Source: Syntrophaceae bacterium (GTDB lineage: Bacteria > Desulfobacterota > Syntrophia > Syntrophales > UBA4778). Taken from it: 53,597 bases of DNA. Made by a program: the position numbers and the translations under genes. The notes below the pieces were generated by a model. It was not told where the DNA came from and did no database searches. It saw nothing but the letters and a program-made list of their open reading frames with translations. The stretch lies in NCBI GenBank assembly GCA_039680225.1, contig JBDKTK010000417.1:1-53597 (forward strand). The letters run 5' to 3'. Position 1 is the first letter of the stretch; each line of letters begins with the position of its first letter. Shown here one piece after another: positions 7,574 through 21,896 of this stretch.

Positions 7574-8474
7574 AACTTTTTCATTCCGGATCTCCCCGGT
7601 CCCGCCCTTCCGGCTGGACCTGACGTGCTGGGCGTTGCGCCGGAGCCGGGAGAACTCTGTGGACGTATGGGACGGAACCTCTTATAACCGGCTTCTCACC
7701 GTGGGTGGTACAATTGCGGAAGTCACAGCCGTGCAGTCAGGCCCTCCGGAAAGGCCGGTTCTCAAAATCACGGTTTCCGGCCCGGACGGCTCACGTGAAA
7801 TGAGGCGCAATATAGAATCCCGGATCAGGATGATGCTCGGGACGGACATTGACTTGACCGGATTCTACCGCATCGCCGGCCGGCACAGGCGGCTCAAGCA
7901 GATGGCGGCTGAATTTGCCGGGCTGAAGCCCCCCCGCTTCGCATCTATTTATGAAGCGGTCGTGAACGGGATTTGCTTTCAACAGCTTTCCCTGGCCGCC
8001 GGTACGGCCCTCCTCAACCGCCTTACGTCTTTCGGCCCCGCACATAACAGCCGGCGCGCTTTCCCGAGGCCCGCCGACCTGGCGGAGGTTGAACCGGGCG
8101 AACTGAAGTCCCTCGGCTTCAGCACGAACAAGGCAATCGCCCTCACTGCGTTATCCCGGGCCATAATTCATGAAGGGCTGGATCTTGAGTCGCTCGTTTC
8201 CCGTCCGGATGAAGAAGTGACGGAAATCCTCGATGCGGTCCGGGGCGTGGGCCCCTGGACCGCGCAATATGTGCTGCTGCGCGGCATGGGGCGGCTTTCG
8301 GTGTTTCCCGGCAAGGACGTGGGCGCGAGCCGCAATCTTAACAGGTATTTCGGTTTTGCCGCGCCGCTCGACTTCGCAGGGGTTCAAAATTACCTTTCAA
8401 GGTTCCACCCGTACGAAGGCCTGATATATTTTCACCTCCTGCTGAAGAATCTCACTGAGCGGGGGGTGATATGA
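7566..8474 (+). CDS. DNA-3-methyladenine glycosylase II family protein (AlkA-like, HhH-GPD)
   Basis: 302 aa with the HhH-GPD signature GVGPWTAQYVLLRGMGRLSVFPGKDVG. Both ends overlap the neighbouring genes. Confidence 0.8.
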   Translation: MPETFSFRISPVPPFRLDLTCWALRRSRENSVDVWDGTSYNRLLTVGGTIAEVTAVQSGPPERPVLKITVSGPDGSREMRRNIESRIRMMLGTDIDLTGFYRIAGRHRRLKQMAAEFAGLKPPRFASIYEAVVNGICFQQLSLAAGTALLNRLTSFGPAHNSRRAFPRPADLAEVEPGELKSLGFSTNKAIALTALSRAIIHEGLDLESLVSRPDEEVTEILDAVRGVGPWTAQYVLLRGMGRLSVFPGKDVGASRNLNRYFGFAAPLDFAGVQNYLSRFHPYEGLIYFHLLLKNLTERGVI

Positions 8475-9016
8475 AAGAGAAAGGGCTGATATTCACGATC
8501 GGCCATTCCACGATGCCGCTGGACAAATTCATGTCCATCCTGAAGGACAACTCGATTGAGCTCGTGGCGGATGTGCGGACCCTGCCGCATTCCCGCCATA
8601 ACCCGCAGTTCAATATCGAAACGCTCCCGGCAGAGCTGGCCGGAGCGGGGATCGGGTACGCTCACCTGGCCGCCCTCGGAGGGCTGCGCCATACCCGGCC
8701 GGATTCGCCCAACAAAGGATGGGTGAACGCCTCTTTCCGGGGGTTCGCCGACTACATGCAGACGCAGGAATTTGAGAAGGGGCTTAAGGAACTGATTAAA
8801 ACTGCGCGGTCGAGGCGGACGGCGGTCATGTGCGCCGAAGCGCTCCCCTGGCGGTGCCACCGGTCGCTCATTGCAGATGCGCTGACCGTCAGGGGCTGGC
8901 GCGTGGAGCATCTCACCGGGACAGGCAAGCCCTACCCGCACCAGGTAACGAAAATGGCCCGGGTGGAAGGCCTGAATATCACCTATCCCCCCAACAGTAA
9001 TCCCGGGCCCAAATAG
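8471..9016 (+). CDS. DUF488 domain-containing protein
   Basis: 181 aa with FTIGHS, DVRTLPHSRHNPQF and CAEALPWRCHRSLIAD, which match my memory of DUF488. ATGA overlap with the upstream gene. Confidence 0.7.
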   Translation: MKEKGLIFTIGHSTMPLDKFMSILKDNSIELVADVRTLPHSRHNPQFNIETLPAELAGAGIGYAHLAALGGLRHTRPDSPNKGWVNASFRGFADYMQTQEFEKGLKELIKTARSRRTAVMCAEALPWRCHRSLIADALTVRGWRVEHLTGTGKPYPHQVTKMARVEGLNITYPPNSNPGPK

Positions 9017-9095: not shown

Positions 9096-9575
9096 ATGCA
9101 GGTCCTGATCCTTTATTATTCCAGAACGGGCAACACCAAAAAGCTCGCCGAGGAGATCGGAAAAGGCGTGGTCCAGGTAGACGGCGTCAAATGCGTCCTG
9201 AAGTCGACAGATGAAGTCACGAAAGAGGATTTCCTGGCCTCCGGCGGGATCATTGTGGGCTCGCCGGTGTATTTCGGCAGCATGGCGGCGGGTCTGAAGG
9301 ATGTGCTCGACAAGCATGTCGGCATCCGCAAGAAAATGGAGAACAAGGTCGGGGCGGCTTTCGCCACATCTGCCGACCCCTCGGGCGGGAAAGACACGAC
9401 GATAATATCCATAATCCAAGCCCTGCTCATCTACGGGATGATCATCATCGGCGACCCCATTGACGCAACGGGCCATTACGGCGTTTCCTGCCTGGGCGCC
9501 CCCGACCATCAGGCCGCGCTCAATGCCGCAAAGCTGGGCAGGAGGGTGGCCGAGCTCGTTAAAAAACTGCAGTGA
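9096..9575 (+). CDS. flavodoxin-like NAD(P)H-dependent oxidoreductase (WrbA-like)
   Basis: Start placed at ATG 9096, after the SD AAAGGAGGG. MQVLILYYSRTGNTKKLAE is the flavodoxin FMN loop. The tracked ORF begins 42 nt earlier without an SD. Confidence 0.75.
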   Translation: MQVLILYYSRTGNTKKLAEEIGKGVVQVDGVKCVLKSTDEVTKEDFLASGGIIVGSPVYFGSMAAGLKDVLDKHVGIRKKMENKVGAAFATSADPSGGKDTTIISIIQALLIYGMIIIGDPIDATGHYGVSCLGAPDHQAALNAAKLGRRVAELVKKLQ

Positions 9576-9583
9576 GGTCTCCC

Positions 9584-9907
9584 ATGGAAGAAGATGTCAT
9601 CCAGGTGTTCACGACCACGGAAAAGAAGGAGGATGCCGAACGGATCGCGAAATCCCTTATCGACGCCAAGCTTGCGGCCTGCGTCCAGATAATGGGGCCG
9701 ATCGAGAGCACTTACCGGTGGAAGGGAAAGATCGAAAAAACCGCCGAATGGTTCTGCTTCATCAAGAGCACGCAGAAACTGTACCCGGACCTGGAGAGCG
9801 CCATCAAGAAAGAACACCCTTACGAAGTCCCGGAGATCATCGCGGTCCCCGTTTCCGGCGGCAGCGCCGATTATCTCAAATGGCTCAAGGGCCAGGTAAA
9901 AAAGTAG
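9584..9907 (+). CDS. cutA: divalent-cation tolerance protein CutA
   Basis: CutA1 signature: LAACVQI...STYRWKGKIE...EHPYEVPEIIAVPV. I prefer ATG 9584 (GAGG SD). GTG 9572 (GTGA overlap) is the alternative start. Confidence 0.85.
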   Translation: MEEDVIQVFTTTEKKEDAERIAKSLIDAKLAACVQIMGPIESTYRWKGKIEKTAEWFCFIKSTQKLYPDLESAIKKEHPYEVPEIIAVPVSGGSADYLKWLKGQVKK

Positions 9908-9917
9908 GTGGCATGGA

Positions 9918-11153
9918 ATGAAAATCGAAGAGCTGCACGTCTCCAATTTCAAGACCTTTGAAAACCTGGACCTGACGGACCTCAACAATTTCAGCGTTTT
10001 GATCGGGGCCAATTCCTCGGGCAAGTCCAATTTCATCCAGATATTCCGGTTCCTGAAAGACATCTCCCGCAGCGGGCTGCGCAACGCGGTCTCCCTCCAG
10101 GGCGGGATCGAATACCTGAAAAATACGAGGCTGGGCCCGAAAGAGATATCGATCAAGCTGGTGTACGATCCCGGGCTCGAGGTGACGAGAAAAAAGGGCG
10201 CGCTGAAGATCCGGTACCGGAAGTTTACGTACGGCTTTGATCTCGAGCTGACCGCCAGGGGACGAGGCTACAGGATCAAGCGGGACTGCCTGGAAAAAGA
10301 GATGGAGTTCCCGGCACAGGGCAATGCCGGCAAATCACGGAAGCTCCTGACGGGCAGAAGCATCCTTTGCAGCAGCGGCGGAAAAATCACCTACGAGCTT
10401 GACGTCCCCCGCGGTGTGAAGCTCAAAGCCGATGATGTGATCCCGCCCTTTCTCAAGGAGGAGAGTCTTCCCCCGGACAGCCTGCTTCTGGAGAGTTCGT
10501 TCTTTTCCTTCTTCCATCGTTTTGAGAGATTCTTTGACAAGATCGCCATTTATGATTTTGATCCCAAGCTGCCGAAACGGTCGGTCACGACGAGGGCAAA
10601 AGTAGAGCTCGAGGAGAACGGCAGCAACCTTGCAATAGTCCTGAAAGACATCCTGGAAGACCCGGACCGCAAGAGGAAGTTCTCCAACCTGCTGCGCGAC
10701 CTGCTGCCGTTTTTTGAAGACCTGGAAGTGGAAAACATCACCGATAAGTCCCTGATCATGAAATTGCGCGAGCTTTATAACGGCAACCGGTACATGCCGG
10801 CCCCGTTCATTTCCGACGGCACCATAAACATGATCAACATGATCGTGGCCCTGTATTTCGAGGATAAATCGCTTGTGATAATGGAGGAGCCCGAACGCAG
10901 CATCCACCCGGCTCTCATTTCCCGGATGATTGAGATGATGAAGGACGCTTCCTGCAGGAAACAGATAATTTTGACGACCCACAACCCGGAGATAGTCAGG
11001 GCCGCCGGCCCCCGCAACATCTACCTGGTCTCCCGCGACCGGACGGGTTTTTCGACCGTGAGCCGCCCCTACGAGAAGGAGGAAATAAGGGCATTTCTCG
11101 AAAACGACATAAAAATAGAGGACCTTTACACCAAGGACCTGCTGGGAATCTGA
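9918..11153 (+). CDS. ABC/SMC-type AAA family ATPase (AAA_15/AAA_21-like; OLD / AriA / AbiL-ATPase-like)
   Basis: 411 aa. Walker A is LIGANSSGKSN at the extreme N-terminus, followed by a long helical insert. ABC-signature-like FISDGT, Walker B SLVIMEEPERSIHP and H-loop LTTHNPE are present. Confidence 0.75.
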   Translation: MKIEELHVSNFKTFENLDLTDLNNFSVLIGANSSGKSNFIQIFRFLKDISRSGLRNAVSLQGGIEYLKNTRLGPKEISIKLVYDPGLEVTRKKGALKIRYRKFTYGFDLELTARGRGYRIKRDCLEKEMEFPAQGNAGKSRKLLTGRSILCSSGGKITYELDVPRGVKLKADDVIPPFLKEESLPPDSLLLESSFFSFFHRFERFFDKIAIYDFDPKLPKRSVTTRAKVELEENGSNLAIVLKDILEDPDRKRKFSNLLRDLLPFFEDLEVENITDKSLIMKLRELYNGNRYMPAPFISDGTINMINMIVALYFEDKSLVIMEEPERSIHPALISRMIEMMKDASCRKQIILTTHNPEIVRAAGPRNIYLVSRDRTGFSTVSRPYEKEEIRAFLENDIKIEDLYTKDLLGI

Positions 11154-11179
11154 AGAAACGCTCCCTGCTGTTCGTCTGG

Positions 11180-11725
11180 GTGGAAGGCGGAAGCGACGCC
11201 AGGTTTTTTGATTCAGTCCTGAAACCCCTGCTCGTGAGAAAATACGACCGGGTCGTGATCCGGACGTATGCCAGCATGAAGAGGGACAAGTTTTCCGCCC
11301 TGCTGTATGCGATCAGGGCAATGGGAGCGGATTATCTCGTGATAGCCGATTACGACTGCTCGCCCTGCGTCACGTCCAAGAAGGAATGGCTTAACCAGCA
11401 CATCAAGGGGCTGGATCAGGGGCGGACCAGGATAGTGATCGAAGAGATCGAAAGCTGGTACGCCGCGGGGCTCGATGAGCAGGGGATTGCAAAATTCGGC
11501 ATGCCGGTCTTGGCCGCTATGGCCGGGACGGACAGGATGACGAAGGAGCAGTTCAACGACATGGTCCCGGCAAAGTATGACTCACGGATTGATTTCATGA
11601 TGGAGGTCCTCAAGGTCTATTCTCTGGAGACGGCCCGGAGAAAGAACAGGTCCTTTGAATATTTCCTGAGGAAACAGGGCCTGGTTGCAGACATGGTTGA
11701 ACCGCGGACTGCGAGCGCTGTTTAA
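11180..11725 (+). CDS. stand-alone Toprim-like protein (DUF4276/DUF4435-like), partner of the ATPase; true start probably upstream (CTG 11150)
   Basis: Candidate Toprim motifs are VEGGSDARFF (catalytic Glu), IADYDCS (DxD) and EEIESWY (resembles the EAW motif I recall for DUF4276). The first canonical start (GTG 11180) would remove the beta-strand SLLFVW that precedes the Glu. Confidence 0.6.
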   Translation: MEGGSDARFFDSVLKPLLVRKYDRVVIRTYASMKRDKFSALLYAIRAMGADYLVIADYDCSPCVTSKKEWLNQHIKGLDQGRTRIVIEEIESWYAAGLDEQGIAKFGMPVLAAMAGTDRMTKEQFNDMVPAKYDSRIDFMMEVLKVYSLETARRKNRSFEYFLRKQGLVADMVEPRTASAV

Positions 11726-11751
11726 ATTCATAACACGACATCGAGCTTTTG

Positions 11752-11777
11752 CAGGGGCGTATGGCCATACGCCCCTG
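11752..11777 (+). terminator. perfect GC-rich hairpin after the Toprim-like gene
   Basis: CAGGGGCGTATGG/CCATACGCCCCTG, a 13-bp perfect inverted repeat 27 nt after the stop. There is no clear U-run. Confidence 0.4.
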
Positions 11778-11819
11778 TTGCTGAAGAAACAAAAAATTCA
11801 TCCTGAACGGAGCCGGGCA

Positions 11820-13391
11820 ATGAAAATAGCCAGCGTAATTGAAATGAGGACCATGGACCGGGAGGCTGTCGAGCAGTTCGGCATTTCCGAACAGCTCCTG
11901 ATGGAAAACGCCGGAATGGCGGCATGCACGGTGATATCGCGGGAGTTCGGCGTCCGGGGAAAAAGGTTCATAATCTTCTGCGGCATGGGCAATAACGGCG
12001 GGGACGGGTTCGTCGCGGCCCGCAAACTCCACTCCATGGGAGGCCGGGTAAAAGTCTTCATCCTCGGCGATCCGAAAAAATACTCCGGAGCTGCAAAGGT
12101 CAATTATAAAATGGCGTCCCTTCTCGCAATGGAAATGAAATCGATAAATTCAGCCGACGGCCTCCGGGAAGCAATCGACGGATGCGATGCAATTGTCGAC
12201 GCGATTTTCGGGACCGGGCTGACGAGGGAAATAGAAGGGTACATCGGCCGGGTGATCGACCTGATCAACTCTTCGGGGAAGGCCGTCTTCAGTCTCGATA
12301 TCCCGTCGGGGATAAACGGCGATACCGGTGAGGCGATGGGGAAGGCGGTGCGGGCCGACTTCACCGTGACGTTCGGGCTTCCGAAGACCGGGAACATCCT
12401 CTACCCGGGATTTGCCAATTGCGGCAACCTGAGCTTATCGCATATCTCTTTCCCGCCATCCCTTTACGGCAACTCGGAACTGAAAGTGGAAATCAATGTC
12501 CCCGTTGCCATTCCCGAGCGGAAGCCGGACGGATACAAGAAAACATTCGGCGAAGTGCTCTTCATAGCCGGGGCTGCCGGATACATCGGCGCGCCCTACT
12601 TTTCCTCTTATTCTTTCCTGAAAGCGGGAGGCGGATATTCCCGCCTTGCCGCCCCCGCGTCTGTCGCCCCGCTGATTGCGGCCAAGGGCAGCGAGATAGT
12701 GCTCCACCCGCAGAAAGAGACCGGCAAGGGTTCCCTGGCTTACTCGAATAAAAACGAACTGCTGTCCCTGGCAAACAGGATGGACTTGGTGGTCATCGGG
12801 CCGGGGCTGTCTCTCGACGAAGAGGCCCAGCGCCTGGCGCGCGAGCTGATCGCGGAAATCGCTGTCCCGGTGCTTATTGACGGCGACGGCATAACTGCGG
12901 TGAGCGCGAAGACCGAACTGCTGCGCGGCAGGAAAGACCGGACAATCATCACTCCCCACATGGGCGAGATGGCGCGGCTTGCGGGGCTCAGCGTCGCTGA
13001 AATTGGAAAAAAGCAGGTCGAGGTCCTGCAATGCACGGCGAGGCAGCTCAACGCGGTGATCGTCCTGAAGGGCGCGCATTCCCTTATCGGGTACCCCGAC
13101 GGCAGCGTTTTCATGAACATGAGCGGCAATGCAGGGATGGCGAAGGCCGGGACGGGAGACGTCCTCAACGGCATTATCGCGGCCATGCACGGGCTGGGCC
13201 TTCCCGTTCCCGAGGCGGCGCGCATGGGGGTGTTTGTGCACGGCCTGGCCGGCGACGTCGCCGCGCAGGAAACCGGCGAGGACGGGATCTCCGCGCAGGA
13301 CCTTTTGAGCAGCCTTCCCGAGGCCGTGACCATCGCCCGCGAAATGGAATACGGGGATTTCGTGGAAGCTTACGGCATCGAGGAGATTTAA
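11820..13391 (+). CDS. nnr: bifunctional NAD(P)H-hydrate epimerase / ADP-dependent NAD(P)H-hydrate dehydratase
   Basis: Start placed at ATG 11820 (MKIASVIEMRTMDREA). The YjeF-N motif is CGMGNNGGDGFVAAR. The C-terminal carbohydrate-kinase motif is GNAGMAKAGTGDVL. The tracked ORF starts 135 nt earlier, inside the hairpin. Confidence 0.85.
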   Translation: MKIASVIEMRTMDREAVEQFGISEQLLMENAGMAACTVISREFGVRGKRFIIFCGMGNNGGDGFVAARKLHSMGGRVKVFILGDPKKYSGAAKVNYKMASLLAMEMKSINSADGLREAIDGCDAIVDAIFGTGLTREIEGYIGRVIDLINSSGKAVFSLDIPSGINGDTGEAMGKAVRADFTVTFGLPKTGNILYPGFANCGNLSLSHISFPPSLYGNSELKVEINVPVAIPERKPDGYKKTFGEVLFIAGAAGYIGAPYFSSYSFLKAGGGYSRLAAPASVAPLIAAKGSEIVLHPQKETGKGSLAYSNKNELLSLANRMDLVVIGPGLSLDEEAQRLARELIAEIAVPVLIDGDGITAVSAKTELLRGRKDRTIITPHMGEMARLAGLSVAEIGKKQVEVLQCTARQLNAVIVLKGAHSLIGYPDGSVFMNMSGNAGMAKAGTGDVLNGIIAAMHGLGLPVPEAARMGVFVHGLAGDVAAQETGEDGISAQDLLSSLPEAVTIAREMEYGDFVEAYGIEEI

Positions 13392-14468: not shown

Positions 14469-14537
14469 AGGGAGGTATGGCGCAGGAACTTTATTCCCGC
14501 AGTGCATTGCTGCACGGTGAATCTACATAAAAGGTTA

Positions 14538-14627
14538 TTACTCGAACGGTGTTGCCATCGGGTCAACCCATTTCACCCAGGTATATTTCGCTTTAGCTGT
14601 TTTTTGGGTCTTTTCGGTCTTTTTCAT
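14538..14627 (-). CDS. small Lys-rich peptide a (29 aa), MKKTEKTQKTAKAKYTWVKWVDPMATPFE
   Basis: Hand-translated and not in the track. SD GGAGGA lies 7 nt upstream of the ATG. It is paralogous to peptide b at both the nucleotide and protein level. Confidence 0.6.
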   Translation of the reverse strand: MKKTEKTQKTAKAKYTWVKWVDPMATPFE

Positions 14628-14658
14628 TTTAAATCCTCCTTCATGAATCTGAAATCAT

Positions 14659-14751
14659 CTATTCAATCGGGGTTGCCATCGGGTCGAAATCAGCCAGCTT
14701 TATCCACTCGTATTTCTCTTTGGTCTCTTTGGTCTTCTCGGTCTTTTTCAT
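14659..14751 (-). CDS. small Lys-rich peptide b (30 aa), MKKTEKTKETKEKYEWIKLADFDPMATPIE
   Basis: Hand-translated, with SD AAAGGGGA upstream. It shares MKKTEKT at the start and DPMATP(F/I)E at the end with peptide a. Confidence 0.6.
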   Translation of the reverse strand: MKKTEKTKETKEKYEWIKLADFDPMATPIE

Positions 14752-14780
14752 TTCGGATCCCCTTTCTTAAAGATTTCGTT

Positions 14781-14879
14781 TTACGGCCTGAAAGGATAGC
14801 AGGTGGGGTCTACCCAGAGTCCTCCGACCTTGCGCGCCCTTTCTCTTGACCCTTTTTTGTTTCTGATGTCCTTTTTCAT
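14781..14879 (-). CDS. small basic peptide c (32 aa), MKKDIRNKKGSRERARKVGGLWVDPTCYPFRP
   Basis: Internal ATG of tracked ORF 14781..14981, preceded by the SD GGGGAGG. It shares the MKK start and the W-V-D-P motif with peptide a. Confidence 0.5.
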   Translation of the reverse strand: MKKDIRNKKGSRERARKVGGLWVDPTCYPFRP

Positions 14880-15197
14880 CCTTCTTACCTCCCCTTGGGG
14901 AGTGTCGGTTCTTTTTTCGCGATTAAAATATACTTCGCGCCCTGCCTGGACAATCGGAGTTCTTCCGAAAAAATAGTTCAATAAAGAAATAAATTTCTTA
15001 GGAGGGGCAATAAAGCCCTGATCGGTGTTTGTCCTATTGTTTTTCTCAGGGATTTCTATAAAATCTTGAAAGCCGCGGCACGGCGGGCGGGATTGCCGGA
15101 ATGCAGCAGAAAAAAATCCTTTGTACTCCGGAGGATTTCAATTGACACGGCATTGAGTTAAATATATTCATCTCCCTGAAAATATTGGAGAAAACAA

Positions 15198-17432
15198 GTG
15201 GACAAAAGAAAATCCAAAATAGAGCTGATCAATGAACTGGCCGAACTGAGGGGCCAGATCCAGGAACTCAAGAAATCAGAAACAGACAGCCTCTTCGAAG
15301 AGGGCCTTTACAAATATCTCGAGAGCAGTTCGAAGGCGGGAATTTACGTTTTGCAGGACGCGAAGTTTCAGTTCGTCAACCACCACGCCGCCAGGTACTG
15401 GGGCTATAACCGGGACGAGCTGATCGGTATGGAATCGATGAGCATTGTCCACCCCGAGGACCGGCTCAAGGTGCGGGAAAACGCGATCAGGATGCTCAAA
15501 GGGAAACGGACATCCCCTTACGAGTTTCGCACCGTGGCGAAAAACGGTGACATCAGATGGCTGACGGAAACAGTCACCCCCATTCATTTCCGGGGCAGGA
15601 GGGCGGTCCTCGGCAATTCAATGGACATAACCCAGCAAATCAAGTCCCGCAACAAGCTTGCGGAACTCGAGGCGCTCGAAGCTTCTATACTCGAAGCCAT
15701 ACCTCATGCCGTAATAGGGCTTCGGAACAGGCGCATAATCTTTGCCAACGACGGCGTCCAGGCGGTCTTCGGCTGGAAAGCAAGGGACCTCATCGGCAAG
15801 AGCACGCGTGTGCTGTACCCGACGGAGGAGGGCTTCGAGGAAATAGCAAAGATGCTCTATTCCACGCTTGAGCGCCAGCGCACTTTCAGCGCCGAATTCA
15901 CATGCAGCCGCAAGGACGGGACCGAAATAAACTGCATGATCAGCGCGTCCCGTATCGGGGAAAGCCTGCAGGACAAGAACATAGTCATCACTTACGAGGA
16001 CATCACAGACCGCCAGCGCGCCGAAGAAGCTTACAAGATGATGGCGGACAGTTCGCAGGCCGGCGTTTACGTGGTTCAGAACGACGTCTTCCAGTTCGTT
16101 AACCACAATGCCGCCCGGTATGCGGGCTACAGCTCCCAGGAGCTTGCCGGGACGAATTCCATGGGCCTCGTCCATCCTGATGATCTGAAGATGGTGCGAA
16201 AAAACGCTATGGCCATGCTGAAAGGCAAGCGCATGGCGCCCTACGAGTTCCGGATAATCACCAAGGACGGCCGCATCCGCTGGATAATGGAGACGGTCAC
16301 CTTCATCCCCTACCGGGGAGCGCGGGCGGTCCTCGGCAATTCGATGGACATCACGGAGCAGTTCGAAGCCCGCAACAAGCTTGCGGAACTTGAAGAGCTT
16401 GAGGCCTCCATTCTCGAAGCAATACCGCACGCGGTAATCGGGCTCAGGGACAGGACAATCATTTTCGCCAACGACGGAGTCCAGGCTGTCTTCGGATGGA
16501 AAGCCGAAGACCTTATCGGCAGGAGCACTCGGCTCTTCTACCCTTCAGACCGGGAGTATGACGAGATAGCAAAGCAGCTTTACTCGACGCTCGAGAAACA
16601 GCGCACCTTCAGCACGGAATTTGTCTGCAGGCGCAAGGATGGCAGCAATATCGAAGTCATGATCAACGCCTCGCGAATCGGGGAAAAACTGAAGGAGCGC
16701 GGGATAGTCATCACCTACCAGGACATCACGGAGCGCAACAAGGCCAAGAACGAGCTGCAGCGGTCCCGGGAGCAGTTGCGCAACCTCTCGGCCCACCTTG
16801 AATCCGCCCGGGAGCAGGAAAGGACCAGGATTGCCCGGGAGCTCCACGATGAGCTGGGACAACTCCTCACCGCGCTCAACACAGATGTGATTCTCCTGAA
16901 CAGGGACATCCCGGAAGAGCAGAAATCGCTTCGGGAGAAGACCGCTTCATTGTCGAATCTCATCGATATGACAATGAAGACGTGCAAGCGGATTTACATG
17001 GACCTGCGGCCCGGCATGCTGGACCACCTGGGGCTTGCAGTCGCCGTCAGCTGGCTTTCGGATGAATTCCAGAAACGGACCGGCATCGCCTGCAAGGTGT
17101 CAATCGACCCTGAGGACATGGTGGTCGACCCGGACCTTTCCACCGCAATCTTCCGCATCTGCCAGGAGACCCTTACGAACGTGCAGCGCCACGCGGAAGC
17201 CACGCGTGTGAAGATTGATATGAAAGCAAAAGATGATCATATTGAACTGAGTGTCAGAGACAATGGAAAAGGCATTACGCAGGAGCAGCTGACCAAGCCC
17301 AACTCGTTCGGCCTGCTCGGCATACAGGAACGGGCGTTGCACTGGGGAGGAGAGGTTAAGATAACCGGCAAGGAAGGTAAGGGGACGTTGATCAAGGTCC
17401 GGATGCCGCTGGCGAAAGGAGCAGTTGTATGA
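15198..17432 (+). CDS. cytoplasmic multi-PAS sensor histidine kinase (HisKA_3 / NarX-DegS type)
   Basis: 744 aa with a GTG start after GGAGAA and no transmembrane segment. It has four PAS-like modules. The HisKA_3 H-box is RIARELHDELGQ, and the HATPase_c motifs are DNGKGI and GLLGIQERA. Confidence 0.85.
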   Translation: MDKRKSKIELINELAELRGQIQELKKSETDSLFEEGLYKYLESSSKAGIYVLQDAKFQFVNHHAARYWGYNRDELIGMESMSIVHPEDRLKVRENAIRMLKGKRTSPYEFRTVAKNGDIRWLTETVTPIHFRGRRAVLGNSMDITQQIKSRNKLAELEALEASILEAIPHAVIGLRNRRIIFANDGVQAVFGWKARDLIGKSTRVLYPTEEGFEEIAKMLYSTLERQRTFSAEFTCSRKDGTEINCMISASRIGESLQDKNIVITYEDITDRQRAEEAYKMMADSSQAGVYVVQNDVFQFVNHNAARYAGYSSQELAGTNSMGLVHPDDLKMVRKNAMAMLKGKRMAPYEFRIITKDGRIRWIMETVTFIPYRGARAVLGNSMDITEQFEARNKLAELEELEASILEAIPHAVIGLRDRTIIFANDGVQAVFGWKAEDLIGRSTRLFYPSDREYDEIAKQLYSTLEKQRTFSTEFVCRRKDGSNIEVMINASRIGEKLKERGIVITYQDITERNKAKNELQRSREQLRNLSAHLESAREQERTRIARELHDELGQLLTALNTDVILLNRDIPEEQKSLREKTASLSNLIDMTMKTCKRIYMDLRPGMLDHLGLAVAVSWLSDEFQKRTGIACKVSIDPEDMVVDPDLSTAIFRICQETLTNVQRHAEATRVKIDMKAKDDHIELSVRDNGKGITQEQLTKPNSFGLLGIQERALHWGGEVKITGKEGKGTLIKVRMPLAKGAVV
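15336..16781 (+). repeat. internal tandem duplication (2 x 723 bp = 2 x 241 aa, each a double-PAS unit) inside the kinase gene
   Basis: AGIYVLQDAKFQFVNHHAARYWGY...NKLAELEALEASILEAIPHAVIGLRNRRIIFANDGVQAVFGWKA is repeated. The second copy reads AGVYVVQNDVFQFVNHNAARYAGY...NKLAELEELEASILEAIPHAVIGLRDRTIIFANDGVQAVFGWKA. The period measured from the sequence is 723 nt. Confidence 0.85.
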
Positions 17433-18067
17433 AAAAAGTCAGAATCCTGATTGCGGATGATCACCCGATAGTCAGGGAGGGTTACAAGAAGATTCTCATG
17501 GACATGCCCGACTTGGTTGTTTCCGATGAGGCCGGCAACGGGCAGGAGGTGCTTAACCTTGTCCGGAAGAAGGATTATGACCTCATCCTCCTGGACATCT
17601 CGATGCCCGGGCGCAATGGGCTGGAGATACTCAAGGACCTGAAAGAGGAAAAACCCAAACTGCCGGTCATGATCCTCAGCATCTATCCCGAAGAGCAGTA
17701 TGCCGTCAGGGCGTTCAGGGCGGGCGCTTCGGGTTACCTTACCAAGGCGAGCGCTCCGACCGAGCTGATATCCGCTATCCGGAAGATCTCCCAGGGCGGC
17801 AGGTACATCAGCTCCTCCATGGCGGAAAAGCTCACATATTATTTTGATGCCGATACATTGAAGCCGCCCCATGAAAACCTCTCCGACCGGGAGTACCAGG
17901 TAATGCTGATGATTGCTTCGGGTAAAACTGTCAAGGAGATAGGTGAGGAGTTATTCCTCAGCGTCAAGACAATCAGCACATACAGGACCCACATCCTGGA
18001 AAAGATGAAGCTGAAAAACAACGCGGAAATCACCCTCTACGCTATCCAGAATAAGCTCGTTGGCTGA
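17429..18067 (+). CDS. LuxR/NarL-family response regulator (REC + HTH_LuxR)
   Basis: 212 aa with RILIADDHPIVREG, the phospho-acceptor context LILLDISMPG, and the C-terminal LSDREYQVMLMIASGKTVKEIGEELFLSVKTISTYR. ATGA overlap with the kinase stop. Confidence 0.9.
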   Translation: MKKVRILIADDHPIVREGYKKILMDMPDLVVSDEAGNGQEVLNLVRKKDYDLILLDISMPGRNGLEILKDLKEEKPKLPVMILSIYPEEQYAVRAFRAGASGYLTKASAPTELISAIRKISQGGRYISSSMAEKLTYYFDADTLKPPHENLSDREYQVMLMIASGKTVKEIGEELFLSVKTISTYRTHILEKMKLKNNAEITLYAIQNKLVG

Positions 18068-18082
18068 TTTTTGTTCTTTTGC

Positions 18083-18113
18083 AGGGGCGGCCGGCCGGTC
18101 GCCCTTTCTTTTT
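18083..18113 (+). terminator. rho-independent terminator after the response regulator
   Basis: The hairpin GGGGCGGCC-GGCC-GGTCGCCC is followed by TTTCTTTTT. Confidence 0.6.
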
Positions 18114-18281
18114 AATATTATTCCCGGCTCATAGGAGAAACACCGATGCCGGGGACAAATCCAGTCCTAAAAGGATAAACTTTCCGTCTTAACCGCAATT
18201 CGGACGCTCGCCGATTTTCTCCTGAAGCAGCCTGCAATAGATTGTACTCGAAAAAAGAAAAGGCCCGCAGGAGGAGCCAAA

Positions 18282-18392
18282 ATGCTGAAAGCGAGAATCG
18301 GACACAGAACAGAATTCAATCCCAAGATGGATGAAATTTTAGGACTGAAGAAAGACAGGATCTGGAACGATCCTACGAGCCGCGCTCGTTAA
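18282..18392 (+). CDS. small ORF d (36 aa), MLKARIGHRTEFNPKMDEILGLKKDRIWNDPTSRAR
   Basis: Hand-translated, with a strong SD GGAGGAG 7 nt upstream. It contains I-W-N-D-P-T-S, which resembles L-W-V-D-P-T-C of peptide c. Confidence 0.4.
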   Translation: MLKARIGHRTEFNPKMDEILGLKKDRIWNDPTSRAR

Positions 18393-18559
18393 AGTCTTTT
18401 TTCTATATAGAGAGCCGATTTCAGTAGGTCCTCGGTCGGAGCTCTCCGATAGATTACGGAGGGCAATCCTTTTTCACCTGTGGCGGGGCTTCAAAACCCC
18501 GCCATCGGCTCCCTCCTCAAGACAAGGCGGGCTGAAAATAAAACAGGGAGGTGATAAGA

Positions 18560-18661
18560 ATGGCCAAGTTAAGGAGCAAAACCAATAAACCAGGGATCAA
18601 GGAACTGGACGAGATTAAAAGAGAGACTATCGCCTGCATCATCGGCAATGAAGTCCCCTGA
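18560..18661 (+). CDS. small ORF (33 aa), MAKLRSKTNKPGIKELDEIKRETIACIIGNEVP
   Basis: Hand-translated, with SD GGGAGGTG 8 nt upstream. It is followed by a hairpin (AGCCCC...GGGGCT) plus a T-run at about 18683-18720, and preceded by a structured leader. Confidence 0.4.
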   Translation: MAKLRSKTNKPGIKELDEIKRETIACIIGNEVP

Positions 18662-18977
18662 ACAGAATGCCGCTTTAAAAAGTGAGCCCCTGGCCCTTGC
18701 GGGCGGGGGCTTTTGTTTTATGCCTTTCCTCCTCTATTGTCGTTTCAAGCAGTTCTTCCGATATCCTGTCTTTTTTTCTCTTGAATTTCGGGAACCAGAC
18801 CCGCGTAAAAAATCTCTCCAGAAACTTCCTCCACAATACCGTCATGGCCCTTGCCTTTCGAAACAGCAAAAATTTTTGAATATTGTTTCTGAAAAAAACG
18901 GGTAATCGTAGCCGCAGGAGACTCTCTCGGCAATATAGTCATATTGAGGGGTTTTTAGACAAAAAAACCCTCAATAC

Positions 18978-19241
18978 TTATCTGCCAAGCCGTGCGTTCC
19001 TGTAATAAAGCAGGACGTCCGTGAGCACCAGGGCTCCGTTGAGCGCATAGAGGTAAATGACATAATCGAAATTATAGAAAATCTTGTGAAATACGCCGGC
19101 GACGTAACCTGTCAGGACGACATAAAGAAAGGCCACGCTCTTCCCGGCATTGGATTTCGATTTATAAGAGCGATAAATCGAAAAAGGCCAGGCGGCCCCG
19201 AAGCAGACAAGCATAATTATTTCGAAGATACTGAACGACAT
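18978..19241 (-). CDS. PQ-loop / SemiSWEET-like small membrane protein
   Basis: 87 aa with three hydrophobic helices. AAWPFSIYRSYKSKSNAGKSVAF aligns by eye with the APQ..K....R...G.S motif of bacterial SemiSWEETs. A hairpin follows the stop at 18944-18975. Confidence 0.5.
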   Translation of the reverse strand: MSFSIFEIIMLVCFGAAWPFSIYRSYKSKSNAGKSVAFLYVVLTGYVAGVFHKIFYNFDYVIYLYALNGALVLTDVLLYYRNARLGR

Positions 19242-19298
19242 GGGGCGGCAATATAAAAAATAATTTGCCTTCTGTCAAAACGAGATTTTCCCGCCCGC

Positions 19299-21896
19299 TT
19301 AGAGCTTGGCTCCCCTGAGCCTGAGCGCGTTGGCGATGACCGAAACGGAACTGAAGCTCATTGCCGCCGCGGCGATCATCGGGCTGAGCAGCAGACCCGT
19401 AAAGGGATAAAGTATTCCCGCGGCAACCGGGATGCCGAGCGCATTGTACACGAACGCAAAGAAGAGGTTCTGCCTGATGTTGCGCATGGTGGCCCGGGAA
19501 AGCTTTATGGACCGTACAATACCGACGAGGTCCCCTTTGACCAGGGTCACGCCCGCGCTTGCCATCGCGACGTCCGTGCCCGTTCCCATCGCGATTCCGA
19601 CGTGGGCCTGGGCGAGCGCCGGCGCATCGTTTATTCCATCCCCCGCCATGGCCACGGTGCGGCCCTCGGCCTGCAATCGTTTTACCTCTTCGGCTTTCCG
19701 GTCGGGGAGCACTTCCGCCGTGAAGTCGTCGATGCCGAGTCTCGCCGCCACGGACCTGGCTGTCGTCGAACTGTCGCCCGTGATCATGACGACCTTCACA
19801 CCCTCCTCATGGAGCTGCCGGATGGCGTCAGGGGTGGATTCCTTTATGGGGTCGGATACGCCGAGGAGGCCGGCGGGCCTGCCGTCGACAGCGAGAAACA
19901 TGACCGTTCTGCCCTGCTGCCGCATTTCCTCGGCTTTTACCGCCGCTGCCCCGAAATCCATCCCGAGCGAATCCAGCAGGGATTTATTGCCGAGGGCTGC
20001 CGGGCGCCCCTCGACTTTGCCTGCCACCCCTTTTCCGGTGATGGACTGGAAAGATTCGGTTTCTGCCGGCATTATGTCCTTTTCCGCTGCTCCGCCCGCA
20101 ATGGCTGATGCAAGGGGGTGCTCGCTCCCCAGCTCCAGGCTCGCAGCGTAAAAGAGAACAGACTGCTCATCAAATCCCTGTAAAGGCACGATATCGGTCA
20201 GCCTGGGCTTTCCCACCGTCAGTGTGCCGGTCTTGTCGATTACGAGCGTGTCGACCTTCTGCATTATTTCTATCGCTTCGGCGTTTTTGAAAAGGACTCC
20301 CGCCGTCGCGCCTTTCCCCGCGGCGACCATTATTGACATGGGAGTTGCAAGGCCCAAGGCGCAAGGGCAGGCAATTATAAGGACTGCAACAGCATTGATA
20401 ATCGCGTACGCCATCCGGGGCTCCGGTCCCAGAAGGGCCCAGGCAATAAATGTAATCACTGCAGCCGCAAGGACCCCTTGCACGAAATACGCGGCGACAA
20501 TGTCCACCATGCGCTGGATGGGCGCGCGACTCCTCTGGGCTTCGGCAACCATCTGGACGATGCGCGCCAGCAGCGTTTCGGAGCCGATTTTTTCGGCCCG
20601 CATCACGATGGAACCCGTCCCGTTGACCGTCGCCCCGATAACCTTGTCGCCTGGTGCTTTGGCTGCCGGAATCGGTTCGCCTGTCACCATGGATTCGTCC
20701 ACCGAACTGGAACCTTCGATCACTGTCCCGTCCACGGGGATCTTTTCTCCGGGCCTGATCCTTAATTTATCGCCATGGGTGACATCAGAAAGGGGGATAT
20801 CGTTTTCCGTGCCGTCCTGGTTTATGCGCCGGGCAGTATTGGGGGCCAGACCCAGGAGGGCCCTGATTGCCGCCCCCGCCCGCCCCCTGGCCCGCAATTC
20901 AAGGACCTGGCCGAAGAGGACCAGCGTGGTAATGACGGCAGCTGCCTCGAAATACGTTCCGACTTCCCCGTCCATTCCGCGGAAAGAGGGAGGGAAAAGG
21001 AAAGGGAAGAAGACCGAGATGACACTGTAGAGATAAGAAACGCTTACCCCGATGCCGATCAGGGTGAACATATTAAGGCTGCGGTTCAGGATGGATTCCC
21101 AGCCCCTCGCCAGAAGCGGCCATCCGCCCCAGAGGACGACAGGAGTGGCCAGGACGAGCTCGGCCCATTTCAGGGTTTTTACCGAAATGAAATTCTCCAG
21201 GTGCAGGCCCGGGATAAGGTCCCTCATCGCGACCAGGACAAGGGGGATCGACAGAATCGCCGAAATCCGGAACCGGCGCGTCATGTCCACAAGCTCGGGG
21301 TTCTCCTCTTCGAGCATAATGGTGCGCGGCTCAAGGGCCATGCCGCATATCGGGCAGCTCCCCGGCTCGTCCCGGATTATCTCCGGGTGCATGGGACAGG
21401 TCCACTCTGTCCTGATCTGCGGTCCGGCCGGAAGCATTGGCTCCAGGGCCATACCGCATTCGGGGCAGGAGCCCGGACCGGTCTTCTGCACTTCGGGATG
21501 CATCGGGCAGGTATAGATGCGTTCATCTTTCCCGGTGGCCTTCGGCTCGGGTTTCTTTTCCAGGTACTTATCCGGTTCCTTCCGGAAGCGTTCGAGGCAG
21601 CGAGGGTTACAGAAATAATATATCGTGCCCTTGTATTCGTATCTCAGGGCGTCCGGCGTAATCTCCACGTCCATCCCGCAGACAGGGTCTTTGGCCGTTT
21701 TGACAGCCGGTTTATCTTTAGCAAGGTATTTCTCGGGGTCCTCCCGGAAGCGTTCCAGGCACCTCTGACAGCAGAAATAATACGTTTTCCCGTGGTAATC
21801 GTAATGCGGCGCGCCGGGTGTCATTTTCACCGACATCCCGCAGACTGGATCCCTGGCGCTCTTGAAGCTGTCCTTGAAGATATTCTCTTTATCCAT
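19299..21896 (-). CDS. copA: heavy-metal (copper-type) translocating P1B-type ATPase with 2x YHS/TRASH and 2x YTCPMHP-type N-terminal metal-binding repeats
   Basis: Start placed at ATG 21896 (MDKENIF). Motifs present are DPVCGM...YYFC..RCLERF (twice), (Y/W)TCPMHPE...GSCP.CGMALEP (twice), the transmembrane CPC motif ([11 protein letters not shown]), DKTGTLT and [10 protein letters not shown]. Confidence 0.9.

What the first reader, a model, noticed from the sequence alone, without database searches (positions are those of the whole stretch)
9918..11725. Two-gene ABC-type ATPase plus stand-alone Toprim-like module (OLD/PARIS/AbiL-like) embedded between housekeeping genes: candidate defence system
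Gene 1 (411 aa) has an N-terminal Walker A (GANSSGKSN) and a long helical insertion. It also has FISDGT, Walker B LVIMEEPERSIHP and H-loop TTHNPE. This is the SMC/ABC-like ATPase architecture of OLD, AriA, PtuA and AbiL-type ATPases.

Gene 2 (about 181-191 aa) carries what look like Toprim catalytic elements: VEGGSD (Glu), ADYD (DxD) and a C-terminal EEIESW motif. This resembles DUF4276/DUF4435-type nuclease partners.

The pair sits between cutA and nnr/thiL, with no mobile-element genes and apparently native GC content. ATPase-plus-Toprim pairs are known anti-phage modules (OLD, Gabija GajA, PARIS AriAB). This short-Toprim variant may be a distinct or uncharacterised subtype.
Basis: partly seen in the sequence, partly recalled or inferred. 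Interest (0 to 1): 0.7.

Follow-up and report, generated by a model that had tools for sequence, protein, structure and literature searches.

The report
ATPase plus Toprim nuclease gene pair
Two overlapping genes encode an ATP-driven regulator and a small metal-dependent nuclease of a type known from anti-phage systems, but here the pair has been inherited like a core gene between housekeeping genes, so it is a known kind of module behaving unusually.

Summary
Gene 1 (9918-11153, 411 aa) is an OLD-family ABC ATPase with all catalytic motifs conserved. Gene 2 is a stand-alone OLD-like Toprim nuclease related to DUF4276. Its true extent is 11150-11725 (191 aa). It starts at a conserved CTG that overlaps the ATPase stop codon (CTGA), not at the GTG at 11180.

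The pair matches an existing PADLOC candidate type, HEC-01: strongly for the ATPase (3e-53), weakly for the Toprim (8e-7). It is therefore a divergent member of a known kind, not a new subtype.

The defence reading is only partly supported. Every structural relative is an anti-phage effector, and one HEC-01 representative has been reported to protect E. coli. But this subfamily behaves like a core gene:
- It occupies the same cutA|nnr slot in 12 Syntrophales-type loci, down to about 50% identity.
- Its divergence tracks Nnr (r about 0.94).
- Its dN/dS (0.07-0.18) and GC3 match the flanks.
- No copies were found in plasmids, phages or viral contigs.
- It has a second fixed housekeeping slot in about 35 Methanoregulaceae species.

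Most likely it is a chromosomally fixed, ATP-gated Toprim nuclease used for surveillance. A domesticated cellular role cannot be excluded.

The parts
9918..11153 (+). Gene 1: OLD-family ABC (SMC/Rad50-like) ATPase, 411 aa. Walker A is at residues 30-37, Q61, signature SDG at 299-301, Walker B/D-loop LVIMEEPE at 319-326 and H355. A beta-rich insert covers about residues 77-162 and a short helical insert about 235-298.
   Evidence: Pfam AAA_21 1.6e-29, AAA_15 4e-22, SMC_N 3e-11. PADLOC HEC-01A 3.2e-53. Invariant motifs in 30 homologues. AF2 model pLDDT 74.9. Foldseek top hits are Ts OLD, retron Eco8, GajA and PtuA, all probability 1.0.
11150..11725 (+). Gene 2: stand-alone OLD-like Toprim nuclease (DUF4276-related) with a C-terminal helical domain, 191 aa. 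The putative two-metal site is E12, D16, D67(xD69), E99xE101, plus invariant K78/K132.
   Evidence: Alignment of 29 homologues. AF2 model pLDDT 89.8 with b-a-b-a-b-a-b plus helices. The top 5 PDB matches are OLD C-terminal regions 6njv/6njx/6nk8/6njw. DUF4276 is hit by 21/29 members and OLD-like_TOPRIM by 7/29. PADLOC HEC-01B 8e-7. The OLD catalytic residue list is from PMC6755086.
11150..11153 (+). CTGA junction: the CTG start of gene 2 overlaps the TGA stop of gene 1. Termination-reinitiation coupling is inferred.
   Evidence: The same position is ATG, GTG or TTG in almost all other loci and CTG only in the window, L001, L003/L012, L006 and L013. The V of VEG is GTC or GTA in L003 and L006, so it cannot be the start there. 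The 42 N-terminal codons have dN/dS 0.06-0.26.
9906..9911 (+). Shine-Dalgarno-like AGGTGG, 6 nt before the gene 1 ATG and overlapping the cutA stop codon. cutA and gene 1 are only 10 nt apart.
   Evidence: Read directly from the sequence. Tight packing flavodoxin-like/cutA/ATPase/Toprim. In L010 all four genes cutA-ATPase-Toprim-nnr abut or overlap.

Best explanation
The pair is a two-component, ATP-regulated nuclease module of the OLD / HEC-01 class.

What the evidence shows:
- Gene 1 is an ABC ATPase with a complete ATP-binding and hydrolysis motif set.
- Gene 2 is a small Toprim nuclease whose conserved acidic residues match, in order and spacing, the two-metal site of OLD nucleases.
- The two genes are always adjacent. 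Here they are translationally coupled through a CTGA overlap.
- In this Syntrophales lineage the module has been inherited vertically, under purifying selection, in one fixed chromosomal slot inside a housekeeping gene string.

What is inferred, by analogy with PARIS, OLD and Gabija:
- The ATPase oligomer binds and restrains, or positions, the Toprim subunit.
- A trigger such as a foreign protein or an abnormal nucleic-acid structure, together with ATP binding or hydrolysis, releases or activates the nuclease.
- The nuclease then cuts DNA or tRNA by two-metal catalysis and halts the invader or the infected cell.
- The weak CTG start keeps the potentially toxic nuclease sub-stoichiometric to its ATPase.

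I consider a conflict (anti-phage or anti-mobile-element) role the most likely biological function, exercised here by a long-fixed, constitutively co-transcribed 'core' copy rather than a mobile island gene.
For: - Family and structure: AAA_21/AAA_15. HEC-01A 3e-53, plus PDC-M07A, AbiLi, AriA and mad3 hits. All closest solved relatives of the ATPase, by sequence (PtuA, GajA, retron Ec83 ATPase, AriA, Ts OLD) and by fold (Ts OLD, retron Eco8, GajA, PtuA), are defence proteins.
- Toprim: confident model, whose top five PDB matches are OLD nuclease C-terminal regions. The family hits DUF4276, OLD-like_TOPRIM and DUF4435 and HEC-01B, mad4 and AriB.
- Catalytic set: E12, D16, D67, E99 and E101 are conserved, matching Bp OLD E400, E404, D455, T506 and E508 (PMC6755086).
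- Pairing: the ATPase lies upstream of the Toprim gene in all 80 species-level loci, directly adjacent in nearly all.
- Function retained: dN/dS is 0.07-0.12 for the ATPase and 0.09-0.18 for the Toprim.
- Experimental precedent: one HEC-01 representative protected E. coli B against at least one of T4, T5 and T7 (PMC12881386). mad3 and mad4 deletions reduce MADS defence (bioRxiv 10.1101/2023.03.30.534895).
- Other contexts: a distant family member sits next to a methylase-Mrr fusion, and one is bracketed by direct repeats. The family is spread patchily over many bacterial and archaeal phyla, which implies horizontal transfer.
Against: - Context does not look like defence. The pair has the same cutA|nnr slot in 12 Syntrophales-type loci. 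Its identity matrices are congruent with Nnr and CutA (r 0.83-0.94). dS and GC3 equal those of the flanks.
- It has a second fixed slot, between TspO and a flavodiiron gene, in about 35 Methanoregulaceae species.
- In 35 other loci no defence or mobility family recurs in more than 2-3 of 114 neighbours.
- Additional examples lie between Elp3/GatDE and between SurA/NicO.
- There are no homologues of the Toprim in 72,556 plasmids, 50,697 phages or 2.9 M viral contigs.
- The HEC-01 representative tested by Payne et al. gave no protection.
- The Toprim is below Pfam's DUF4276 threshold (19.2 against 30.2 bits). The ATPase is far below NCBIfam's MAD3 cut-off (105 against 420).
- No trigger, substrate or complex has been shown for any member of this subfamily.
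Confidence: 0.55

Rival explanations
1. Domesticated housekeeping module. An OLD-like ATPase-Toprim pair was recruited for a cellular task such as DNA-end or nick processing, repair, or RNA/tRNA maturation or quality control (compare RecF-RecR, Rad50-Mre11 and RNase M5). It is now a core gene of certain anaerobic lineages and not an immune system.
For: - Vertical inheritance with the flanks down to about 50% identity, with congruent matrices.
- Purifying selection equal to cutA, nnr and thiL, and native GC3.
- Operon-like packing with housekeeping genes.
- An independent fixed slot in about 35 Methanoregulaceae species.
- Absence from phage, plasmid and viral collections.
- Neighbours overwhelmingly metabolic.
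- Within the close clade the pair appears as frequent as Nnr: 15, 15 and 12 clusters, many on the same contigs.
- SMC, Rad50 and RecN heads are also strong structural matches.
Against: - Only 8 Syntrophales-type species genomes appear among the best 80 of 408 hits, and 65/65 other Nnr relatives at 39-63% identity lack the pair. It is therefore not universal or essential at order level.
- The distribution across phyla and both domains is patchy, at 40-55% identity, which points to horizontal spread.
- The nearest relatives by every measure are defence proteins, ranking ahead of repair ATPases.
- Some copies are next to restriction-type genes or bracketed by repeats.
Confidence: 0.27
2. Selfish addiction (toxin-antitoxin-like) cassette. 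The Toprim is a toxin restrained by the ATPase (AriA is deposited as 'AriA antitoxin'). The pair persists because losing it kills the cell, without benefiting the host.
For: - AAA_21 is described in Pfam as 'putative AbiEii toxin, type IV TA system'.
- PDB entries name AriA an antitoxin.
- The nuclease gene follows its regulator, is translationally coupled to it and has a weak start, which suggests dosage control.
- The compact two-gene cassette is inserted at many unrelated sites.
Against: - Addiction modules are normally variable, multi-copy and mobilome-associated. This pair is single-copy in a fixed slot, co-diverges with the genome over long times and is absent from plasmids and phages.
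- Purifying selection on both genes is as strong as on the housekeeping neighbours.
Confidence: 0.12
3. Decaying relic. Gene 2 has lost its start codon and the pair is on its way to becoming a pseudogene.
For: - There is no ATG, GTG or TTG at the ancestral start position in the window's clade.
- Gene callers truncated the protein to 149-150 aa in L003 and L006.
- ATPase matches are partial or split in a few loci such as L013, L039 and L040.
Against: - The CTG is conserved in five genomes whose Toprim identity goes down to 64%.
- The 42 codons upstream of the first ATG have dN/dS 0.06-0.26, with synonymous changes.
- The full-length reading frames are intact, with dN/dS about 0.1.
Confidence: 0.03

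Closest known systems
HEC-01 (Hma-embedded candidate 01; PADLOC-DB v2; Payne et al., bioRxiv 10.1101/2024.01.29.577857)
   Same: It has the same two-gene architecture: an ABC ATPase followed by a stand-alone Toprim protein with an OLD-like metal site. The ATPase matches HEC-01A models at up to 3e-53 over nearly full length. The Toprim and its relatives always best-hit HEC-01B models.
   Different: - Toprim matches are weak (8e-7 for the window protein, 1e-5 to 5e-11 for relatives) and mostly cover only the N-terminal half of the model.
- The founding HEC-01 genes were found embedded in Hma systems. This subfamily sits in housekeeping slots and is vertically inherited.
- Reported activity of HEC-01 is mixed: none in Payne et al., some protection in the cold-seep study.
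Class 1/2 OLD family nucleases (P2 Old, Ts OLD 6P74, Bp/Xcc OLD 6NK8/6NJV)
   Same: These are the best structural matches for both proteins. They share the ABC ATPase plus Toprim plus helical domain logic. The residue pattern E-x3-[DE] ... DxD ... [TE]xE ... K is the same.
   Different: OLD is a single polypeptide, whereas here the two domains are separate, translationally coupled genes. Sequence identity is only 12-16%. There is no UvrD-like helicase neighbour as in class 2/Gabija.
PARIS (AriA ABC ATPase + AriB DUF4435 Toprim; PMC11464382)
   Same: It is a two-gene ATPase + stand-alone Toprim system. AriA models hit gene 1 (1.3e-26; PDB AriA 2.5e-6). It offers a mechanistic template in which the ATPase scaffold sequesters the nuclease until triggered.
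   Different: AriB is a 35 kDa DUF4435 protein. Gene 2 is 21 kDa and DUF4276-like, and only 5/29 relatives show weak DUF4435 hits. PARIS is typically carried by P4-like satellites and phages, whereas this family is absent from viral and plasmid collections.
Mad3/Mad4 of the methylation-associated defence system MADS (bioRxiv 10.1101/2023.03.30.534895; DUF4276 = Mad4 per PMC12065111)
   Same: It is an AAA-type ATPase + DUF4276 pair. The mad3 model hits gene 1 (6.7e-25 PADLOC; NCBIfam MAD3 4.7e-30). mad4 hits some Toprim relatives (up to 2e-7).
   Different: The NCBIfam score is 105 bits against a 420-bit cut-off. None of mad1, mad2 or mad5-8 is nearby. Mad3/4 are accessory parts of an eight-gene system, whereas this pair stands alone.
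AbiL (AbiLi ATPase + AbiLii RloB-type Toprim) and Menshen NsnB/NsnC variants
   Same: The AbiLi model hits gene 1 (1.8e-30) and NsnB hits it at 2.5e-22. RloB and DUF4276 are both Toprim-superfamily effectors paired with ABC ATPases (PMC12065111).
   Different: Gene 2 shows no RloB hit in Pfam at E<=1. There is no third Menshen component nearby.

Membership tests
HEC-01 (PADLOC candidate) | ATPase component matches HEC-01A profile over most of its length | tested here: met
   PDLC04176 3.2e-53, residues 1-374 against model 1-335/371. Seven further HEC-01A models score at 1e-28 to 4e-48.
HEC-01 (PADLOC candidate) | Toprim component matches HEC-01B profile | tested here: inconclusive
   The best hit is always HEC-01B, but it is weak: 8e-7, residues 9-119 against model 8-114/204 for the 191-aa protein, and 1e-5 to 5e-11 for relatives. 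PADLOC's own thresholds could not be applied here.
HEC-01 (PADLOC candidate) | Two adjacent co-oriented genes, ATPase then Toprim | tested here: met
   The genes overlap by 4 nt in the window. The same order is seen in 80/80 loci.
HEC-01 (PADLOC candidate) | Embedding in Hma or other modification-based defence systems (the basis of discovery, not required for each member) | tested here: not met
   The flanks are cutA and nnr. Only one distant relative (L011) lies next to a methylase-Mrr gene.
HEC-01 (PADLOC candidate) | Anti-phage activity | not testable with these tools
   Literature only: negative and positive for a different representative.
Toprim fold / OLD-like Toprim nucleases | b-a-b-a-b-a-b core with Glu after strand 1 and DxD after strand 3 | tested here: met
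   Model strands 6-11, 34-39, 61-67 and 93-96. E12 and D67 are invariant and D69 is D or N. The top five Foldseek hits are OLD Toprim regions, probability 0.97-1.0.
Toprim fold / OLD-like Toprim nucleases | Second-metal ligands (E404, T506, E508 in Bp OLD) and catalytic Lys from the helical domain | tested here: inconclusive
   D16, E99 and E101 are conserved at the corresponding spacing, and K78 and K132 are invariant. No residue-level structural superposition could be made with the tools available.
OLD family (class 1/2) | ATPase and Toprim in one polypeptide | tested here: not met
   There are two ORFs in different frames separated by a stop codon. No slippery sequence is present at the junction.
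Gabija | GajA fusion protein plus adjacent UvrD-like helicase GajB | tested here: not met
   No helicase gene is adjacent in the window or in the syntenic loci.
PARIS | AriB-type DUF4435 Toprim partner (about 35 kDa) | tested here: not met
   The window protein has no DUF4435 hit. Only 5/29 relatives hit weakly, with a best E of 1.3e-3. The protein is 191 aa.
MADS (Mad3/Mad4) | Mad3 equivalog score and presence of mandatory mad6-8 | tested here: not met
   NF047739 scores 105.1 bits against a cut-off of 420. The neighbours are housekeeping genes.
Pfam DUF4276 (PF14103) | Score at or above the gathering threshold of 30.2 bits | tested here: not met
   19.2 bits, E 0.0016 for the 191-aa protein. 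21/29 relatives hit at E<0.01, best 8.6e-6. It is a related but separate subfamily. The profile search found 1,383 representatives in all.
Pfam AAA_21 / AAA_15 (OLD-type ABC ATPases) | Score above gathering threshold; Walker A, Q-loop, signature, Walker B and H-loop present | tested here: met
   104.4 bits against 27, and 79.7 against 32.1. The motifs are invariant in 30 homologues.

The most novel reading that the evidence does not exclude
A defence-derived OLD-like ATPase-Toprim module has been exapted into a core, vertically inherited cellular function, or is an unusually long-lived 'core immunity' gene. This happened in two unrelated anaerobic lineages from similar anoxic habitats: a Syntrophales clade and Methanoregulaceae. 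In the window's clade, expression of the nuclease is deliberately throttled by a conserved non-canonical CTG reinitiation start.
Probability: 0.25. Interest if true: 0.6.

Novelty: new member of a known kind. Interest (0 to 1): 0.36.

Why it matters
If the homology-based reading is right, this adds a divergent subfamily to the ABC-ATPase/Toprim group of anti-phage systems. The subfamily has about 1,400 representatives at 50% identity and is poorly captured by current Pfam, NCBIfam and PADLOC models.

It would also be a counter-example to the rule that such systems are mobile, island-associated and short-lived. Here a module of this kind has stayed in one chromosomal slot and co-diverged with housekeeping genes.

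That matters in two ways. Methods that find defence genes by context would miss it. And it bears on how, and whether, immune nucleases become domesticated.

The conserved CTG start overlapping the upstream stop codon is a concrete, testable case of dosage control by translational coupling. It is also a practical annotation problem, because gene callers truncate or misplace this gene.

Tried and rejected
- GTG 11180 as the start of gene 2. Rejected because the codon is GTC or GTA in L003 and L006, and the upstream codons are conserved with synonymous changes.
- A programmed -1 frameshift fusing the ATPase and Toprim into an OLD-like single protein. Rejected because there is no slippery heptamer at GGGAATCTGA, the junction sequence differs in L006 and L007, and most family members have an ordinary ATG there.
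- Nnr-anchored metagenome scan for presence/absence within the lineage. It returned only Nnr relatives at 39-63% identity from lineages with a different gene order. It shows the linkage is lineage-specific but does not give a within-clade loss rate.
- Sequence-profile search of gene 2 against the PDB. Nothing was significant. Only the fold comparison found OLD.
- Viral structure library. There was no significant match. An RloB-like phage protein at rank 4 (E 0.066, TM 0.43) is suggestive only.
- Plasmid, phage and viral-contig searches for the Toprim found nothing. The ATPase had only 25-30% identity hits on plasmids.
- Promoter and terminator scan of 8.9-12.1 kb found nothing above the shuffled expectation.
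- Flanking repeats around the window's pair were only chance-length matches.
- Co-orientation with neighbours in sporadic loci (19/28 upstream, 19/29 downstream) is unremarkable.
Full report
**1. What is in the sequence**

Two co-oriented ORFs lie on the + strand. Gene 1 (9918-11153, 411 aa) follows cutA (9572-9907) after only 10 nt. An AGGTGG Shine-Dalgarno-like motif overlaps the cutA stop.

In an alignment of 30 homologues, the Walker A residues (G30, N32, G35, K36, S37), Q61, the signature SDG (299-301), the Walker B/D-loop EEPE (323-326) and H355 are invariant. Pfam gives AAA_21 (1.6e-29), AAA_15 (4e-22) and SMC_N (3e-11).

Gene 2 was listed mechanically as 11180-11725 (GTG, 181 aa). Its reading frame stays open upstream and encodes LKKRSLLFVWVEGGSD.

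**2. The true start of gene 2**

Distant homologues all begin M-x-x-R-x-LFIWVEGG, with a start codon 8-11 codons before VEG. In the window, L001, L003/L012, L006 and L013 that position is CTG, and it overlaps the ATPase stop (CTGA). In L007 it is TTG (TTGA).

The GTG at 11180 cannot be the conserved start, because the same codon is GTC in L003 and GTA in L006. The first 11 codons differ between these genomes mainly by synonymous or conservative changes. The 42 codons that precede the first in-frame ATG have dN/dS 0.06-0.26, so they are translated.

I therefore place gene 2 at 11150-11725 (191 aa). I infer initiation at CTG by termination-reinitiation coupling. A -1 frameshift fusion was considered and rejected, because there is no slippery site and the junction is not conserved.

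**3. What the proteins are**

*Gene 2.* It gives a confident AlphaFold model (pLDDT 89.8) with a b-a-b-a-b-a-b core followed by helices. Its five best PDB matches are all C-terminal Toprim + helical regions of class 2 OLD nucleases (probability 0.97-1.0, TM up to 0.52). Ts OLD also appears further down the list.

Sequence evidence agrees but is weak:
- DUF4276 scores 19.2 bits, below Pfam's 30.2-bit threshold.
- Individually, 21 of 29 relatives hit DUF4276, 7 hit OLD-like_TOPRIM and 5 hit DUF4435.

The conserved residues are E12, D16, D67(-x-D/N69), E99-x-E101 and the invariant K78 and K132. They correspond in order and spacing to Bp OLD E400, E404, D455xD457, T506xE508 and K562, the two-metal site defined in PMC6755086. 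This mapping is by motif. I could not superpose coordinates.

*Gene 1.* Its model (pLDDT 74.9) matches Ts OLD, retron Eco8, GajA and PtuA best, then SMC and Rad50 heads. By sequence, its nearest solved relatives are PtuA, GajA, the retron Ec83 ATPase, AriA and Ts OLD.

**4. Comparison with known systems**

PADLOC models place the ATPase in HEC-01A (3.2e-53, near full length). Lower hits go to PDC-M07A, AbiLi, AriA, mad3 and NsnB. The Toprim and six relatives always best-hit HEC-01B, but weakly (8e-7 for the window protein; 1e-5 to 5e-11 for relatives), followed by mad4 and AriB.

HEC-01 is described as an ABC ATPase + TOPRIM candidate found embedded in Hma systems. It gave no protection in the original test (bioRxiv 10.1101/2024.01.29.577857). 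A cold-seep HEC-01 representative did protect E. coli B against at least one of T4, T5 and T7 (PMC12881386). DUF4276 has been assigned to the Toprim superfamily, and Mad4 of MADS is a DUF4276 protein (PMC12065111).

NCBIfam's MAD3 model scores only 105 bits against a 420-bit cut-off. No other mad genes, helicase or DUF4435 partner is present. The pair is therefore not MADS, Gabija, PARIS or a fused OLD.

It is best filed as a divergent member of the HEC-01 kind. An exhaustive profile search finds a discrete family:
- 1,383 representatives at E<=1e-3 and 666 at E<=1e-30, out of 1.84 billion proteins.
- Nearly all of the 150 best hits are stand-alone proteins of about 170-200 aa.

**5. Genomic behaviour: the unexpected part**

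*Fixed slot in the host lineage.* The host is a Syntrophaceae/Syntrophales-type bacterium, judged from the record titles. In every close and moderately distant relative the order cutA-ATPase-Toprim-nnr is kept (L001, L003, L006, L007, L009, L010, L012-L019). In L010 the four genes abut or overlap.

Identity to the window falls in step for all four proteins:

| Locus | CutA | ATPase | Toprim | Nnr |
|---|---|---|---|---|
| L001 | 91 | 89 | 85 | 81 |
| L007 (Nnr from L008) | 69 | 68 | 59 | 69 |
| L009 | 56 | 53 | 51 | 61 |

Across 12 loci the pairwise identity matrices show the same subclades. They correlate at r = 0.94 (ATPase-Nnr), 0.94 (Toprim-Nnr) and 0.92 (ATPase-Toprim).

*Selection and composition.* dN/dS is 0.07-0.12 for the ATPase and 0.09-0.18 for the Toprim, against 0.04-0.13 for cutA, nnr and thiL, with similar dS. 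GC3 is 0.74-0.75, against 0.70-0.78 for the neighbours. There are no flanking repeats.

*Frequency in the close clade.* Nnr clusters (12 at >=75% identity) are no more numerous than ATPase or Toprim clusters (15 each), and many lie on the same contigs. The pair therefore looks fixed there.

*A second fixed slot.* About 35 Methanoregulaceae species keep the pair between a TspO gene and a flavodiiron-type gene, amid POR, TrkH and NifH-like genes.

*Other lineages.* In 35 further loci from many phyla the neighbours are heterogeneous and mostly metabolic. No family recurs in more than 2-3 of 114 neighbours. The only defence-type recurrences are two ResIII/DEAD helicases and two or three extra ABC ATPases. 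Individual examples lie between Elp3 and GatD/E, or between SurA and NicO.

*Mobilome.* The Toprim has no relative in 72,556 plasmids, 50,697 phage genomes or 2.9 million viral contigs.

**6. Signs of mobility and conflict**

- The family is scattered over bacteria and archaea at only 40-55% identity.
- Only eight Syntrophales-type species carry it among the best 80 of 408 genome hits.
- 65 of 65 informative Nnr relatives at 39-63% identity have neither cutA nor the pair upstream.
- One distant member sits beside a methylase-Mrr fusion.
- One Dehalococcoidia copy is bracketed by 300-600 bp direct repeats.

**7. Interpretation**

The molecular identity is secure: an ATP-binding ABC regulator plus a two-metal Toprim nuclease, always paired and translationally coupled. 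I put this at about 0.9.

The mechanism is inferred from PARIS, OLD and Gabija. The ATPase oligomer restrains or positions the nuclease until a trigger and ATP turnover activate cleavage of DNA or tRNA. The weak CTG start would keep the nuclease below the level of its partner.

The biological role is less certain:
- Homology says defence, and I rate that about 0.55, taken as a long-fixed 'core' copy.
- Context says core gene. A domesticated cellular role is about 0.27.
- A selfish addiction cassette is about 0.12.
- A decaying relic is excluded by the selection data (about 0.03).

**8. Verdict**

- Right on the protein families.
- Wrong that this is an uncharacterised subtype, since the HEC-01 and Mad3/4-like architecture is already catalogued.

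Novelty: a new, divergent member of a known kind. Its evolutionary stability and its conserved non-canonical start are of moderate interest.

Noticed in passing
window 11751-11778: A perfect 12-bp-stem hairpin (CAGGGGCGTATG GCCA TACGCCCCTG-type palindrome) lies in the 94-nt gap between gene 2 and nnr. It is unique in the window and has no T-run. It is not conserved in L001, L003 or L007, but L006 has a similar GGGGCGTAT..ATACGCCC element plus further palindromes. It may be a REP-like element or a weak attenuator.
   Followed up: partly
window 11685-13391: The mechanical nnr ORF starts at TTG 11685 (568 aa) and overlaps the end of gene 2. Relatives are 523-524 aa, so the real start is almost certainly the ATG at 11820.
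   Followed up: yes
L033:8033-11239: In a Dehalococcoidia MAG the ATPase-Toprim cassette is bracketed by direct repeats (8033-8332 and 10647-10946 at 95%; 8415-8625 and 11029-11239 at about 80%). Each repeat carries a 93-aa YgiT-type zinc-finger ORF. This may be a footprint of cassette insertion or duplication.
   Followed up: partly
L031, L035-L091 (Methanoregulaceae loci), e.g. L052:2239-15870: About 35 Methanoregulaceae species keep the pair in one slot, between a TspO/MBR gene and a flavodiiron-type (ODP + flavodoxin) gene, with POR alpha/beta, TrkH, NifH-like and nitrogenase-like oxidoreductase genes around it. This is a second, independent case of long-term fixation. Both carrier groups (Syntrophales-type bacteria and Methanoregulaceae methanogens) come from anoxic environments, which may have allowed horizontal transfer between them.
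   Followed up: partly
L011:6970-10555: A distant family member (41% identity) lies directly downstream of a 563-aa N6_N4_Mtase + Mrr_cat fusion gene. This was the only clear restriction-type neighbour seen.
   Followed up: no
L013, L039, L040, L046, L075, L080: ATPase matches are partial or split, and in L039 they are separated from the Toprim gene by about 1.3 kb. This is either pseudogenisation or insertion in some genomes, or indel errors in long-read MAGs. It was not resolved.
   Followed up: no
L067:10978-12207; L048 and L051: One MAG has a second paralogous ATPase gene just after the pair. One Thermoplasmata MAG (DQIQ01) carries two separate copies of the pair on different contigs.
   Followed up: no
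window 14500-15500 and 18000-19500: Two stretches have markedly lower GC (0.46-0.49) than the window average of 0.55. The first precedes the PAS histidine-kinase gene. They were not examined.
   Followed up: no
L003:10001-10453, L006:4566-5015 (public gene calls): Public gene callers truncate this Toprim gene to 149-150 aa, starting at an internal ATG, or to 181-183 aa, because of the non-canonical CTG start. Database entries for this clade therefore lack the catalytic Glu or the first strand.
   Followed up: yes
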